A stretch of DNA of 64,000 bases, from the NCBI GenBank assembly GCA_021730225.1, contig CP072532.1, positions 19,230-83,229 of the forward strand. Direction: 5' to 3'. The notes under the pieces were generated by a model, which was not told where the DNA came from, made no database searches, and worked only from the letters and a program-made list of their open reading frames with translations. The stretch is from Candidatus Vesicomyidisocius sp. Agig_15_S12. Its GTDB lineage: Bacteria > Pseudomonadota > Gammaproteobacteria > PS1 > Pseudothioglobaceae. Each line of letters starts with the position of its first letter. The first letter of the stretch is position 1. Below, one piece after another: positions 34,413 through 50,684 of the stretch. Made by a program: the position numbers and the translations under genes.

Positions 34413-34489
<77 letters not shown>

Positions 34490-45404: not shown

Positions 45405-45481
45405 GGTTATGTAGCTCAGCTGGTTAGAGCACAGCATTCATAATGCTGGGGTCGGTGGTTCAAGTCCACCTATAACCACCA
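45405..45481 (+). tRNA. Elongator tRNA-Met(CAU)
   Basis: GGTTATG...TATAACCACCA; anticodon arm CAGCA-TTCATAA-TGCTG. Overall closer to the elongator Met type than to Ile2(CAU). Confidence 0.9.
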
Positions 45482-45625
45482 TATTATATAAGGTTTTAAG
45501 CCTTTATACCTGTTTATAAATAACTCTAGGATAACACAAGACCTATATTTAAATGTTATTTAAAGCAGTTTAGAGTTATTTAAAGTGTATGTTTTAATTT
45601 ATTTAACCCTTCATTATTTAGAAGA

Positions 45626-46140
45626 CTAATGAAACCCCTTCGTAATATTTTGGTCAGATAAGTTTTTCCATTGGATTTTTTTTTGGATAAATACATCATA
45701 ATATGTTTCTTTTAGGTCAGCATCACCAAAATCCAAAAAGGTTATTATCTTTTCACTTTTTTAATAGTTTAGAGTTTGCATAAACTTCGATGAAAAGAAG
45801 TTGTTTGTACGTTCTAACTTCACAAAATAATTGATTATTATTTGTTTTTCTTCTTGTGCCTAGTTACTGTTCTTTCTGTAGAAATCATTTTGTGAGAGAT
45901 ATTCTTCATATTTAATAGCAGAATTCTAAAATTTAACAACCTAGCTATCAGGCGTTTTGACGTCTACAATGTGTTTTTCACTAACCTTATTATGATGAAG
46001 TATAAGTATATCTTACTATTCTTTAGGTAATTGATTTTTCTAGTTACGACACATTTAGTTTTATTTTCCCGTTAATGTATCGATAGACCTCTTTGTGTTA
46101 GTTTGTGTTAGTTCGACAATATATTTTGGTTTCACCAAAT
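45626..46140 (-). pseudogene. Degraded CoiA-like nuclease-family gene
   Basis: One frame with in-frame stops reads EKHIVDVKTPDS*VVKF*NSAIKYEEYLSQNDFY, resembling the CoiA-type H.ADV.T..G.VIEFQ.S.I..EE...R..FY. Upstream boundary approximate. Confidence 0.5.
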
Positions 46141-46202
46141 TTAGTGGTTAGTTTAGAGTTATAACTATGGTATATTTCTGTTTAGTTCTATTTGTAAGTT
46201 TA

Positions 46203-46628
46203 TTACTTGCACCAACTTAATTTTTTACCACCATAATAACTATAAGCCAAGTCATTATCAAGTAGTTCTTGTTCTAAACTAATACCATCAACTATCACAT
46301 TGGCAATAACCCTAAAGTACTTACCTCTCTGTAAATTAGTCAACTTAATTTCTTCAGCATTGTTTAACTTACCTCTTACAAAATTTCTTGCTTTAATGGC
46401 TATATCCTTTTCATACTGGCACTTTCCTCGTATTTCTGGAGTGTCTATTCCATTCACTCTAATAGGTATATTCCTCCCTACGATAGGAGGTAGTAAGTCT
46501 ATGTTTACTCTGAAGGTATCGCCATCATAAACACTGATGACTTTTGATACTATTACTGTACCGTATTGTGGTTTTGATTGTACTTGAAAAACAAGAGTTG
46601 CTATAATAATAGATAAAAATAGTTTCAT
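46203..46628 (-). CDS. Secreted thermonuclease (staphylococcal-nuclease/SNase family)
   Basis: Signal-peptide-like MKLFLSIIIATLVFQVQS; VISVYDGDTF, IRVNGIDTPE, KYFRVIA. Equivalents of D19, D21, R35, D40, E43 and R87 are present. Confidence 0.92.
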   Translation of the reverse strand: MKLFLSIIIATLVFQVQSKPQYGTVIVSKVISVYDGDTFRVNIDLLPPIVGRNIPIRVNGIDTPEIRGKCQYEKDIAIKARNFVRGKLNNAEEIKLTNLQRGKYFRVIANVIVDGISLEQELLDNDLAYSYYGGKKLSWCK

Positions 46629-46646
46629 AAATTTAATGATTAGAGT

Positions 46647-46859
46647 CTAATTTTTATATGCATCTTTAACTGCTTTATATAATGCTTTTTTAGTCTTGTA
46701 GTTTATATTCACAATACAAAAAATATCAAATTTATTTATCTCTTTATTGTAGGATACAACATTGAATAGTCCTTTACTATCTGATATAGTATTTTGAAAA
46801 CAAACAGAGTCGATTATCATTATTTTAGGATTTTTATCAATTTGAAAATACCCTAACAT
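46647..46859 (-). CDS. Hypothetical 70-aa ORF inside the island (may be a gene fragment)
   Basis: ATG-started ORF ending 18 nt upstream of the nuclease start; no motif recognised. Confidence 0.35.
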   Translation of the reverse strand: MLGYFQIDKNPKIMIIDSVCFQNTISDSKGLFNVVSYNKEINKFDIFCIVNINYKTKKALYKAVKDAYKN

Positions 46860-47142
46860 ATATATTTATATTGATTCTTATGACTAATCTTGAAGTAACT
46901 AAGGTATAAAGAAAAGTTAGAGCCTCAAGAAACGATACTGATTTATGTTTTTTGATAATTTTAATGTAGTCTTTTCCTGTAAATTTAGACAAAGTTTACT
47001 CAATTAAATTGATACTTAGGAATATTTGTAAATATTCATACAACTAATACAAATCATATGAATAGTAGTTGGTGTTTCTAATTTTATTTGTTACTTTTAT
47101 TTAAATATTTAATAATTCCAATCACTTTATTAAATATAATCA

Positions 47143-48294
47143 TTACCAATTTTCAACAAAATTTGTATAAATTTCCTTCTGTCTCTGTTTGCTCAATTCC
47201 AACCATACAAGAAGAATGTTGGATAAATTTCATTGTACCTCTATCATAGTTAAGAGTATATATTATTACACTGATTAAGCTAATACGTTTGTGATTGTTT
47301 AATCTCATCAGAACTCTAGTCTAATTTATTGGAAGTTTGGTTAAACATATCATCTAGTTGATGTCATTCTATTTCTAACTGTATCTCGCAACAAGTAACT
47401 ATAGCAGTTGTTAGTGGTGTTATAGGCAGTTTATGGTTACCTAGTGATATTCCTTTAAATACGACAGAACTATTCGTTTCTAATTTACTCCTATTTAACA
47501 TGTTCAACAAATAGTGTATTAATGATAATGTGTGGTTTTATAGTTTGTATTATTATAAATAGTTAAGTTTTATCTTTGTAATCAACATTACTCCATTTTA
47601 GGTTTGTAGTTTCTTTTCTATGTAAACCAGTAAATAGTATAAATACAAGCAGCTCTCTAACAGCATCTTCTGGATTTGATCCTTTTGTCTGGTAGCTCTT
47701 GTACAATCTTGTGCTATTTCTTTAAATTATATGATTTTATTATCACTTTTCTACATGTTTCTCTATTCTAGGCTTTAATGTGTCTAATCTTTTTGGTTGA
47801 GTTACTAATTATTATAGGTCAACCATTATTTCACACTCATCTTATTCATAATTAAATAAAGCTCTAAGTAGCTTCATAGAAGTGTTGGCTTTTGTTATAG
47901 ATTTTTGAGTCATGTCTCTATGTTTTTTCCACATCATCACGAGTAATACTTAATATTTTTTTATCTTTTTAATCAAATAGATAGTTGTTAATAATATGAG
48001 GATTCAAGTTAGTACAATGACTTGTAATATAATTATCCAGCATCTGCAAAAGGGTGTGATAACTTTAATAGTTTCACTATTTGCTTTTTTGGATTAATTC
48101 CACCACTGATATTGTCTAATATTTTTACGGCTTTACTTCTTGCTTTTTATAACACTATTAATGTAATTACGTTTTTACACAATAATTGATTTTATGCTAT
48201 TATTAGTAATCTAGAGGATTAGGTCCGTTAATTTCAGATACGGGCTGGTAGAGAATTCATTATTTTCCTTTGTGAAGCTTATTTATTTACTCAT
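47143..48294 (-). pseudogene. Degraded tyrosine recombinase/integrase with arm-type N-terminal domain
   Basis: Fragments KARSKAVKILDNISGGINP; SITRDDVEK; KANTSMKLLRALFNY; KA*NRETCRK; RELLVFILFTGLHRKETTNLKWSNVD (box I, R to H); NHTLSL; HQLDDMF (eroded HxLR); GTMKFIQ. The span of about 1.15 kb fits an integrase next to the right att site. Confidence 0.85.
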
Positions 48295-48454
48295 ATCTTT
48301 TATATAGTTAGGGATACAGAATGTGGTTATTTGATAGTGAGCAAGTACAAAGTGTGATGGATAATGAATTTATATATGATACTATTTTACAAGTATTTTA
48401 GTGAATATGAATGTATTGTAGTGGATGTAGGTTGAAATTGTAAGCATGAATTTT

Positions 48455-48498
48455 ATTATGCTGTGGTTGGTGATTCAACTCCACTTATAACCACCATA
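48455..48498 (+). repeat. Right attachment site: degenerate copy of the tRNA-Met 3' half
   Basis: attatgctgtggttggtgattcaactccacttataaccaccata vs ataatgctggggtcggtggttcaagtccacctataaccaccata (38/44 identical). Confidence 0.9.
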
Positions 48499-48698
48499 AT
48501 AATGTCATAATTTGGATTGTGTTTTAATGTGTGTCTTTGATTTTTAATCTAACGTAGAAAAGTTAGCCTTATAATTTAATTAATTTTTCTCATGATTATG
48601 ATTATTTTTTTGTTATAAGAAATCATTTTTGATGTGTCTTAAATAAAGAGTATTTTTTTACGTATAATCATTTAGTATTTTGTTCAAGGAATTTTACT

Positions 48699-50684
48699 AT
48701 GCCATCACGCAGAGATTTAGCAAATGCCATTCGTGTTTTAAGTATGGATGCAGTTCAAAGGGCAAATTCAGGTCATCCAGGTGCACCAATGGGTATGGCA
48801 GATATTGCAGAGGTACTTTGGAATGATCATTTAAAGTATAACCCAATGAATGCTAAGTGGACTAATCGTGACCGTTTTGTGTTATCAAATGGACATGGTT
48901 CAATGCTTATTTACTCATTACTACATTTGTCAGGTTATGACCTTAATATGGATGATATTAAAGATTTTCGTCAATTACATGCTAGAACTGCAGGACATCC
49001 TGAATATGGTTATGTAGATGGTATTGAAACAACAACAGGTCCATTAGGACAAGGTATTACTAATGCAGTTGGTATGGCAATTGCTGAGCGAACATTGGGC
49101 GCACAATTTAACAAGTTGGGTCATAATATTGTTGATCATAACACATATGTGTTTATGGGTGATGGTTGTTTAATGGAAGGTCTATCTCACGAATCTTGTG
49201 CTATGGCAGGTACATTAGGACTTGGCAAATTAATTGTCTTTTGGGATGATAATGATATTTCTATTGATGGTCATATTTCTGACTGGATGGAAAAAGATGT
49301 GGCAAGTCGTTTTGAGTCTTATGGTTGGCATGTTGTTCGCGATGTTAATGGTCATGACCCTGATGCAATTAATTCTGCAATTAATGCAGCTAAGGGTGAA
49401 ATTACTAAACCCTCATTTATTTGTACACGTACAACTATTGGTTTTGGTTCACCTAATTTATGTGGTACTCATAATTGTCATGGTGCACCACTTGGTAATG
49501 AGGAAATTGAAGCAACTCGTAAAGAGTTGGGTTGGGATTTTGCTCCATTTGAAATTCCTGTAGATATTTATGCAGGATGGGATCATAAAAAAAAAGGTAT
49601 TGCTGATGAATTAGCTTGGAATGTTAAATTTGCAGCTTATAAGGCGGAGTTTTCAGCAGATGCTGCTGAGTTTGAGCGTCGTATGTCTGGTAATTTGCCT
49701 GTTAACTTTGAAGTTGAGATGGATCAATTTATTGCTAAAACACAGGATGAAATGCCAAGCATTGCTTCTCGTCAGGCCTCTCAACGTACTATTGAAGTTA
49801 TGGGTCCACTATTGCCAGAAATGTTTGGTGGCTCTGCTGATTTAACTGGTTCTAATTTAACTAATTGGTCAGGAACTGTTAAAGTGAATGCACAAAATGC
49901 AAATGGTAATTACCTTTCATGGGGTGTACGTGAATTTGGTATGGCACATATGATGAATGGTATAGTGCTTCATGGTGGTTTTAAGGTTTATGGCGCAACT
50001 TTCTTTATGTTTATGGAATTTATGCGTAATGCATTACGTATGTCAGCACTTATGAAAATTGGTACAATTTATGTTTATACCCATGATTCTATTGGTTTAG
50101 GAGAAGATGGACCTACGCATCAGCCAGTTGAACAGTTAGCAACTATGCGTATGATTCCTAACTTCCAGTCTTGGAGAGGGTGTGATGCAGTTGAATCAGC
50201 AGTTTCTTGGAAGATGGCGATGCTTAGAGGTGATGCACCAACAGGATTGGTATTTTCACGTCAAACTTTGATAGCAATGGAACGAACTTCTGAACAAGTA
50301 GAAAATATTGAAAAAGGAGGTTATGTTATTAAAGATTGTGAAGGCGTTGCTGATATTATTTTTATTGCGACTGGTTCTGAAGTGAATTTAGCAATTGAAG
50401 CGGTAGCGGCCATAAATGTTAAGGTTCGTGTAGTTTCAATGCCTTGTACAAATGCTTATGATGATCAAGATCAAGCTTATAAAGATTCAGTTTTAACACC
50501 GGGGGTTAAGCGCCTTGCGATTGAGGCAGGTGTTGCTGATGGATGGTATAAATACGTAGGCTTAGATGGTGGTGTGGTTTGTATGACAACTTTTGGTGAA
50601 TCTGCACCGGCAGATCAATTGTTTAAAGTATTTGGTTTTACCATAGATAATGTCATTGCACAAGCAAAAGCTATTATTGGCTAG
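48699..50684 (+). CDS. tkt: Transketolase
   Basis: [69 protein letters not shown]. Confidence 0.99.

What the first reader, a model, noticed from the sequence alone, without database searches (positions are those of the whole stretch)
45440..48498. Fossil integrative element at tRNA-Met with both att sites still readable
The 3' 44 nt of the tRNA-Met region recur about 3 kb downstream with 6 substitutions. Just inside that copy lies a full-length but shattered tyrosine integrase pointing inward. This is the standard layout of tRNA-targeting islands and prophages, here frozen and shrunken. It records a horizontal acquisition in a lineage otherwise losing DNA, and att divergence (6/44) gives a rough relative age.
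Basis: partly seen in the sequence, partly recalled or inferred. Interest (0 to 1): 0.7.

Follow-up and report, generated by a model that had tools for sequence, protein, structure and literature searches.

The report
Decayed tRNA-Met island keeping one nuclease
A 3-kb remnant of a mobile DNA island sits behind a tRNA-Met gene in this tiny clam-symbiont genome: its integrase is broken and truncated, but one cargo gene, a secreted nuclease, is still intact and under selection. It is an ordinary kind of element, though such remnants were not thought to exist in this lineage.

Summary
The last 45 nt of tRNA-Met(CAT) (45437-45481) recur at 48452-48496. The match is unique in the 1.03-Mb genome.

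Between the copies, on the minus strand, lies a pseudogene of a P4-type tyrosine integrase (48146->47421). Pfam does not detect it. It matches integrases of relatives at E ~5e-15.

The integrase is not full length. Only residues ~68-332 of ~413 are readable, with 4 stops and 7 frameshifts. A ~2.3-kb lineage-specific deletion removed the catalytic C-terminus and fused the remnant to an LprI/DUF1311 pseudogene.

Four relatives, including the 1,160,782-bp genome, have empty sites. One Ruthia-like genome has a young related element at the same tRNA, with a 45-nt att repeat at 98%.

The island is not wholly dead. A 141-aa secreted SNase-like nuclease (46203-46628) is intact in four reduced genomes, with dN/dS of 0.09-0.21.

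The P. extenta symbiont carries a different fossil of the same family at the same site. Its SNase dS is 6-8 times that of the flanking genes, so at least two elements were acquired.

The kind is known and the instance is new. Interest is moderate.

The parts
45405..45481 (+). Intact elongator-type tRNA-Met(CAT). This is the integration target; its 3' 45 nt form the attL core.
   Evidence: ARAGORN. Rfam tRNA at 69.1 bits, full length. Identical 3' half in G001, G005 and G006.
45437..45481 (+). attL core, running from the anticodon loop (TTCATAA) to the CCA end.
   Evidence: The boundaries equal the 45-nt, 98% identical repeat that flanks the young G002 element. Repeat D1.
45482..46202 (.). Left arm of the island. 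The first ~60 nt are the conserved element end; the rest is unidentified non-coding debris.
   Evidence: 86.5% identical to G001. 568 bp of it are deleted in G005. The first ~60 nt are alignable with G006 and G002. No Pfam or PHROG hit in any frame.
46203..46628 (-). Intact 141-aa SNase-like (staphylococcal-nuclease fold) gene with an N-terminal signal peptide. It is the one surviving cargo gene.
   Evidence: PF00565 at 31 bits against a cut-off of 21. phrog_452 endonuclease, E 2.7e-19. Intact in G001, G005 and G006. dN/dS 0.09-0.21. Absent from the empty-site genomes.
46629..47145 (-). Debris that includes a 70-aa ORF (46647-46859) which is not conserved.
   Evidence: The region is deleted in G001. 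No ORF of 60 aa or more at the homologous place in G005. No family hits.
47146..47411 (-). Pseudogene of an LprI/DUF1311-family secreted protein. Residues ~26-117 remain, with 2 stops and 2 frameshifts; the N-terminus is deleted.
   Evidence: tblastn with the G007 117-aa protein gives E 4.5e-19 in three frames. That protein matches PF07007 at E 3.2e-13. 77% nucleotide identity to G007.
47412..47420 (.). Junction of a lineage-specific ~2.3-kb deletion. It joins LprI residue ~26 to integrase residue ~332.
   Evidence: G001 and G005 hold 2.3-2.5 kb of extra DNA at this point. That DNA has no detectable homolog elsewhere.
47421..48146 (-). Pseudogene of a P4-type tyrosine integrase. Residues ~68-332 of ~413 remain, with 4 in-frame stops and 7 frameshifts. 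The C-terminal catalytic part is missing.
   Evidence: tblastn E 4.7e-15. Frameshift-aware alignment gives score 295. The G002 homolog has PF13356 plus PF00589.
48147..48451 (-). Former integrase N-terminus (arm-binding domain) and the int-attP spacer, now unrecognisable.
   Evidence: Contiguous at 81.6% with G001, where integrase residues 26-67 are still detectable. No alignment in G000.
48452..48496 (+). attR core. This is the displaced copy of the tRNA-Met 3' 45 nt and differs at 7 positions.
   Evidence: Not recognised as a tRNA by ARAGORN or Rfam.
48497..48698 (+). Native flank between the old tRNA end and tkt. tkt itself is 48699-50684 (+).
   Evidence: Homologous to the ~170 bp between tRNA-Met and tkt in the empty-site genomes.

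Best explanation
Positions 45482-48451 are the decayed remnant of a small integrative island.

Mechanism of insertion. A P4-type tyrosine integrase (arm-binding domain plus catalytic domain) recombined the element's attP with the chromosomal tRNA-Met gene. attP carries a copy of the 3' 45 nt of tRNA-Met, from the anticodon loop to CCA. The exchange rebuilt an intact tRNA at the left junction and displaced the original 3' end to the right junction, next to the integrase gene.

Timing. The insertion predates the split of this genome from two sister symbionts, G001 (by its size V. okutanii) and G005.

Decay. The integrase then accumulated stops and frameshifts. Each lineage deleted different pieces. 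In this genome a ~2.3-kb deletion removed the integrase catalytic C-terminus.

Why it is immobile. The genome has no other detectable tyrosine recombinase, and the clade is reported to lack homologous-recombination genes, so the element cannot excise.

What survives. One cargo gene, a signal-peptide-bearing SNase-like nuclease, has been kept by purifying selection and now behaves as a resident gene.

Shown: the repeat, the integrase homology and its damage, the empty sites, the related younger elements, the shared ancestry of the fossil, and selection on the nuclease.
Inferred: the recombination mechanism, by homology to the integrase family; the present immobility; and that the nuclease is secreted and active.
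For: Repeat and integrase.
- The att repeat is unique in the genome. Its boundaries coincide with the 45-nt, 98% repeat of the G002 element.
- Integrase homology.
- The G002 homolog carries PF13356 plus PF00589. The G007 homolog is intact at 406 aa, matches phrog_1 at E 8.9e-52, and has an AlpA-type excisionase nearby.
- All three copies have the same layout: integrase next to the displaced tRNA fragment, pointing inward.

Empty sites.
- G003, G009, G010 and G011 are empty, with homologous flanks.

Shared ancestry with G001 and G005.
- Collinear blocks at 81-91% identity.
- Shared nonsense codons at integrase residues 129, 177, 203 and 221.
- 5 of 7 attR core changes are shared with G005.

Immobility.
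- PF00589 gives no hit anywhere in the genome at E<=10, while all 14 control genomes hit.
- The literature reports XerCD, RuvC and the RecF/RecBCD pathway genes lost in this clade.

Nuclease.
- PF00565 and phrog_452.
- dN/dS 0.09-0.21 in four genomes, while all neighbouring DNA is pseudogenised.
- Patchy distribution among relatives; absent from the empty-site genomes.

Composition.
- Island GC is 27.2% against 32.4% for the window.
Against: - No profile HMM recognises the integrase in this genome directly.
- None of the catalytic residues of the C-terminal half can be checked, because that part is gone.
- About 1.2 kb of the island (45482-46202 and 46629-47145) has no identifiable origin.
- The pseudogene stretches and the SNase are somewhat more diverged between G000, G001 and G005 (raw 9-19%; SNase dS 0.25-0.34) than synonymous sites of the flanking genes (dS 0.09-0.155). 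Vertical descent of the fossil is therefore well supported by structure but not by a clean clock.
Confidence: 0.9

Rival explanations
1. The distal copy is the remnant of a tandem duplicate of the whole tRNA-Met gene. On this reading the DNA in between is ordinary decayed chromosome, not a mobile element.
For: Upstream of the distal core there is a weak extension of similarity to the tRNA 5' half: an exact ATGTAG at nearly the right spacing and an AGCA match.
Against: - In the young G002 element the identity stops exactly at the anticodon loop.
- Rfam and ARAGORN do not see a tRNA at the distal copy, even at E<=1.
- Four relatives have one tRNA-Met directly followed by tkt.
- An integrase pseudogene lies between the copies.
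Confidence: 0.02
2. The remnant is a true prophage whose structural genes have been deleted, rather than a small phage-independent island or satellite.
For: - The nuclease matches a phage protein family (phrog_452), and the integrase and excisionase of relatives match phage families.
- The 2.3-2.5 kb of unidentified debris in G001 and G005, and the 0.7-kb left arm here, could be anything.
Against: - The two least-decayed relatives show no capsid, tail, terminase or lysis genes.
- G002, complete between its att copies at 5.7 kb, has a PDZ lipoprotein, small ORFs and integrase.
- The stretch of the G007 element that was examined (its far end was not located) holds integrase, a 276-aa protein, an AlpA-like excisionase, a 523-aa P-loop protein and secreted-protein cargo.
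Confidence: 0.1
3. The repeat and the integrase-like similarity are chance matches in AT-rich DNA.
For: The window is 32% GC, and short chance repeats are plentiful in it.
Against: - The 42/50 match compares with a genome-wide non-tRNA maximum of about 31/50.
- tblastn E ~5e-15, with the pieces collinear across three frames.
- The same structure is conserved in sister genomes.
Confidence: 0.005

Closest known systems
tRNA-integrated genomic islands and satellites with P4-type tyrosine integrases (for example P4 at leuX and CP4-57 at ssrA in E. coli; named from memory)
   Same: - The integrase of the relatives has the Arm-DNA-bind_3 plus Phage_integrase architecture.
- The att core is the 3' part of a tRNA gene, starting in the anticodon loop.
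- Integration regenerates the tRNA and leaves a displaced 3' fragment.
- An AlpA-type excisionase sits beside the integrase in the intact G007 copy.
   Different: - Here the integrase lies next to the displaced fragment at the end far from the tRNA. In the E. coli examples I recall, it lies next to the intact tRNA.
- The element is dead and only 3 kb long.
- No primase or replication gene of a known family was identified in the relatives.
Related element at the same tRNA-Met in G002 (a 1.18-Mb Ruthia-like genome)
   Same: Same target tRNA, same 45-nt core, similar left-end sequence, same integrase position and orientation. The integrase is about 35% identical over the readable remnant.
   Different: - G002 is young: att copies 98% identical and an integrase with a single frameshift.
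- Its cargo is entirely different (PDZ lipoprotein, small ORFs, no SNase).
- It is an independent acquisition, not the same insertion.
Staphylococcal-nuclease (SNase, PF00565) family secreted nucleases
   Same: The domain matches above Pfam's cut-off. Size is about 140 aa with an N-terminal signal peptide. By eye, DGDT and DTPE motifs occur where the family has its Ca-binding and catalytic residues.
   Different: Distant from characterised members. There is no PDB sequence hit at E<=0.01, and the NCBIfam EcnA and NucI models score far below their cut-offs. Activity and substrate are untested.

Membership tests
tRNA-targeting integrative island (tyrosine-integrase type) | The element is flanked by a direct repeat that equals the 3' part of the target tRNA gene. 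| tested here: met
   45-nt core with 38/45 identical (42/50 extended). Unique in the genome.
tRNA-targeting integrative island (tyrosine-integrase type) | An integrase gene of the tyrosine recombinase family lies next to one att site. | tested here: met
   A pseudogene 305 nt from attR. tblastn E 4.7e-15 to integrases that carry PF13356 plus PF00589. The Pfam model itself gives no hit here.
tRNA-targeting integrative island (tyrosine-integrase type) | The catalytic R-K-H-R-H/W-Y residues are present, that is, the integrase is functional. | tested here: not met
   The C-terminal ~80 residues (HxxR box and Tyr) are deleted, and the remainder has 4 stops and 7 frameshifts. It is a fossil, not a working member.
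tRNA-targeting integrative island (tyrosine-integrase type) | Related genomes have an unoccupied target site with matching flanks. | tested here: met
   G003, G009, G010 and G011 have tRNA-Met, then ~170-180 bp, then tkt.
tRNA-targeting integrative island (tyrosine-integrase type) | Excision to a circular form. | not testable with these tools
A negative result is expected, because no tyrosine recombinase was detected in the genome.
Prophage | Virion structural, packaging or lysis genes are present in the element or in its intact relatives. | tested here: not met
   None among the ORFs of the G002 and G007 elements, nor in the window. The unidentified debris leaves some room for doubt.
SNase (PF00565) nucleases | The domain matches above the curated cut-off. 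| tested here: met
   31 bits against a cut-off of 21, residues 56-132. phrog_452 at E 2.7e-19.
SNase (PF00565) nucleases | Ca2+-dependent nuclease activity; catalytic Arg/Glu/Arg in place. | not tested
   Motifs were read by eye only. No structural alignment was made and there was no PDB sequence hit.

The most novel reading that the evidence does not exclude
Related SNase-carrying islands entered the tRNA-Met site of the recombination-deficient clade-I (Vesicomyosocius) symbionts at least twice. At least one entry would have come after their radiation began, and the nuclease was retained by selection each time.

The evidence is the P. extenta symbiont (G006). Its flanking genes differ from this genome at dS ~0.1. 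Its island has a different architecture, a much more divergent integrase remnant, and an SNase with dS of 0.76-1.14 to the others.

This would mean that horizontal gain of useful genes continued in obligate, maternally transmitted symbionts thought to be closed to it.

The competing reading is one ancestral tandem array of two related elements followed by differential loss. That reading still requires two acquisitions, but before the radiation.
Probability: 0.25. Interest if true: 0.65.

Novelty: new member of a known kind. Interest (0 to 1): 0.38.

Why it matters
Comparative papers on vesicomyid symbionts make three statements about clade I. Phage-related genes are 'completely missing' from the Vesicomyosocius clade. 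The symbionts hold essentially a subset of free-living gene content. Horizontal transfer is almost absent.

This locus is a dated counter-example.
- A mobile island entered the lineage, was immobilised, and is being erased piecemeal by different deletions in each species.
- That gives a small natural time series of deletional decay.
- One imported gene, a secreted nuclease, escaped the erosion.

An imported, selected, exported nuclease in a 1-Mb intracellular symbiont is a concrete candidate for a host-facing or nucleotide-scavenging function. The presence of two different fossils at one site in near-identical genomes bears on whether gene gain truly stopped in this clade.

Tried and rejected
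- Pfam on the three minus-strand frames with stops as X gave no hit. PF00589 over the whole genome gave no hit. HMMs alone cannot see this integrase.
- The frameshift-aware alignment at first ran on into 47311-47267 ('LMRLNNHK', resembling the integrase box-II region). I rejected this as chance. The same DNA, in another frame, is a well-supported LprI pseudogene with 77% nucleotide identity to G007.
No Pfam or PHROG hit supports that in any frame of 45482-46202 or 46629-47150. The identifiable neighbour is LprI/DUF1311.
- I looked for intact homologs of the 2.3-kb extra DNA of G001 in 21 genomes and found none outside G001 and G005.
- tblastn of the G007 and G002 element proteins (276 aa, AlpA, 523 aa, 245 aa, helicase, HTH) against the islands gave only helicase debris in G006.
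- I considered using G003's tRNA 3' end (CATAACC versus TATAACC) as proof that the element supplied the present tRNA end. I rejected it, because other empty-site genomes have the T form.
- PDB sequence search for the nuclease gave nothing.
Full report
**What the window is.** The window is C1:19230-83229 of a single-contig, 1,033,397-bp genome.
- Its nearest relatives have contigs of 1,022,154 bp (G001) and 1,160,782 bp (G003). From memory these are the sizes of Ca. Vesicomyosocius okutanii HA and Ca. Ruthia magnifica Cm.
- G006 is named by its record as Ca. Vesicomyosocius sp. Pext_18_S21, CP072535.1.
- The genome is therefore a clade-I vesicomyid clam symbiont.

**The observation.**
- ARAGORN and Rfam place an intact tRNA-Met(CAT) at 45405-45481.
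- Its 3' part recurs at 48452-48501 with 42/50 identity.
- An ungapped scan of both strands of the whole genome finds no other site above 37/50. All hits of 32-37 are genuine tRNA genes, and non-tRNA background stops near 31/50.
- The distal copy is not called a tRNA by ARAGORN, nor by Rfam at E<=1. It is a 3' fragment only.

**The integrase.**
- Pfam finds nothing in the three minus-strand frames. PF00589 has no match anywhere in the genome at E<=10, although all 14 control genomes match.
- Homology appears through relatives.
  - G002 has, at the same tRNA-Met, a 5.7-kb element whose integrase carries PF13356 (arm-binding) and PF00589. It reads as 325 + 93 aa, split by one frameshift.
  - G007 has an intact 406-aa homolog.
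  - With these as queries, tblastn hits the window at E 4.7e-15 in collinear pieces in three frames.
- A frameshift-aware alignment places residues 68-332 at 48146->47421, with 4 in-frame stops and 7 frameshifts.
- It is not full length.
  - From 47411 down to 47146 the DNA is a pseudogene of a 117-aa LprI/DUF1311 protein. The evidence is E 4.5e-19, 77% nucleotide identity to G007, and PF07007 for the intact homolog.
  - LprI residue ~26 abuts integrase residue ~332. G001 and G005 carry 2.3-2.5 kb of extra DNA exactly there.
  - This genome therefore suffered a private ~2.3-kb deletion. It took out the integrase C-terminus, which holds the HxxR box and the tyrosine nucleophile, together with the LprI N-terminus.

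**It is an insertion.**
- In G003, G009, G010 and G011, tRNA-Met is followed by ~170-180 bp and then tkt.
- The sequence after the window's distal copy aligns with the sequence after the tRNA in the empty site. The sequence after the window's intact tRNA aligns with the left end of the G002 element.
- In G002 the flanking repeat is exactly 45 nt, from TTCATAA of the anticodon loop to CCA, at 98% identity. That fixes the core and shows where identity should stop.
- The integrase lies next to the displaced fragment and points inward in G000, G002 and G007. In G007 the fragment belongs to a different tRNA. This is the native layout of the element family.
- The site is a hot spot. G004 holds unrelated junk there: a truncated HsdM and two IS elements.

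**Age and descent.**
- G000, G001 and G005 share one fossil, with collinear blocks at 81-91% identity.
- Nonsense codons are shared at integrase residues 177, 203 and 221 (G000 + G001) and 129 (G000 + G005). These are mostly W->stop, so some parallelism is possible.
- 5 of the 7 core changes in attR are shared by G000 and G005; 2 are private to G000 and 4 to G005.
- Each lineage then lost different pieces.
  - G001 lost 329 bp after the nuclease and the 5' part of LprI.
  - G005 lost 568 bp of the left arm and integrase residues beyond ~221.
  - G000 lost the 2.3-kb block.
- Together with G006's diverged copy, the remnants cover integrase residues 26-413. The ancestral integrases were therefore full length.
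- The att divergence is a weak clock. Only the distal copy drifts, shared differences may include original attP/attB mismatches, and at one position G000 appears to have drifted back to the tRNA state.

**The island is not wholly dead.**
- ORF 46203-46628 (minus strand, 141 aa) has a signal-peptide-like N-terminus. It matches PF00565 (SNase) above cut-off and phrog_452 'endonuclease' at E 2.7e-19.
- It is uninterrupted in G000, G001, G005 and G006.
- Pairwise dN/dS is 0.09-0.21, comparable to the flanking tkt (0.07-0.12) and lower than coaE (0.27-0.45).
- Among relatives it is patchy.
  - It is absent from G002, G003, G009 and G010.
  - It is present but split about 3 kb from the intact integrase in G007.
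  - It is present in G012 and in many unrelated marine bacteria.
- It behaves as mobile cargo that became fixed and kept here.
Its 'CoiA-like neighbour' could not be reproduced.

**A second fossil.** G006 has a different remnant between the same tRNA and tkt.
- It holds debris of a UvrD-like helicase, homologous to a 1076-aa protein that sits beside LprI in a G007 defence-type island.
- Its SNase gene is in the opposite orientation.
- It retains integrase residues 189-413, with the N-terminus and attR deleted.
- Apart from the tRNA plus ~60 nt, the SNase, traces of integrase and the tkt flank, it shares nothing with the other three, even by tblastx.
- The flanking genes are equally close among all four genomes: dS is 0.086-0.145 for coaE and 0.105-0.155 for tkt.
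- The SNase dS is 0.25-0.34 among G000, G001 and G005, but 0.76-1.14 to G006.
- G006's copy is therefore not a vertical ortholog of the others.
- Two readings remain open. Either two related elements entered separately, or an ancestral tandem pair was resolved differently. I could not build the species tree needed to choose.

**Comparison with what is known.**
- This is a standard tRNA-targeting island with a P4-type integrase, now defunct.
- It is not a prophage by any evidence available. No structural genes occur in the least-decayed relatives.
[quoted passage not shown] It also reports loss of XerCD and recombination genes, and almost no horizontal transfer in clade I.
- I found no paper mentioning this fossil or the nuclease.

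**Verdict.**
- The finding is real and its core interpretation is right.
- Three corrections apply: the integrase is truncated, one cargo gene is living, and the att clock is poor.
- One addition applies: a second, different fossil sits at the same site in a sister symbiont.
- The kind is well known, and the instance is new and moderately interesting.

Noticed in passing
L015 (G006 = CP072535.1) 1590-3400 and 5430-6070: The P. extenta symbiont has a different fossil at the same tRNA-Met: UvrD-like helicase debris, an inverted SNase, integrase residues 189-413, and attR deleted. Its SNase dS to the other clade-I copies is 0.76-1.14, against 0.09-0.155 for the flanking genes.
   Followed up: partly
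L016 (G002) 1116-6785: A young 5.7-kb element sits at the same tRNA-Met. Its 45-nt att repeat has 1 mismatch and its integrase has a single frameshift. A second 32-nt direct repeat (GGGCTACCACTGGGCTACC...) lies near both ends and may be arm-type integrase sites. The cargo is a PDZ lipoprotein and small secreted or membrane ORFs.
   Followed up: partly
L026 (G007) 5025-9860: The part of this element examined (far end not located) has an uninterrupted gene set apart from its cargo nuclease: 406-aa integrase, 276-aa protein (weak GapS6a-like hit), AlpA-type excisionase, and a 523-aa P-loop protein of no known family. Its SNase cargo gene is frameshifted. The element lies next to a 3' fragment of a tRNA other than tRNA-Met, followed by an IS transposase.
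   Followed up: partly
L025 (G007) 1491-11648: A defence-type island holds a 1076-aa UvrD-like helicase, an HTH protein, LprI/DUF1311, a split N6-methyltransferase-like gene, a DEAD-box-type helicase, and a second, distant integrase about 8 kb away. It is the source family of the LprI and helicase debris seen in the clam-symbiont fossils.
   Followed up: no
L018 (G004) 1084-5870: The same tRNA-Met/tkt gap holds unrelated junk: a type I HsdM truncated by an IS3-type element, plus an IS4/IS5-type transposase, with no integrase and no att repeat. The site is a recurrent landing place.
   Followed up: no
L023 (G007) 5986-6019: In G007 a short tRNA-Met 3'-end fragment sits just upstream of tkt, while the intact tRNA-Met lies about 315 kb away. 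This suggests a rearrangement with a breakpoint at this att site.
   Followed up: no
whole genome (G000): The genome has no match to the tyrosine recombinase family PF00589 at E<=10, so XerC/XerD are absent too. This agrees with the published loss of XerCD in the clade.
   Followed up: yes
window 45405-45584, minus strand: The sub-threshold Rfam hits HPnc0260 and Plastid-ycf2 are artefacts of the antisense strand of the tRNA. They are not separate RNAs.
   Followed up: yes
window 34413-34489: A second tRNA-Met(CAT) gene lies 11 kb upstream. I did not examine whether it is the initiator or a lysidine-Ile type.
   Followed up: no
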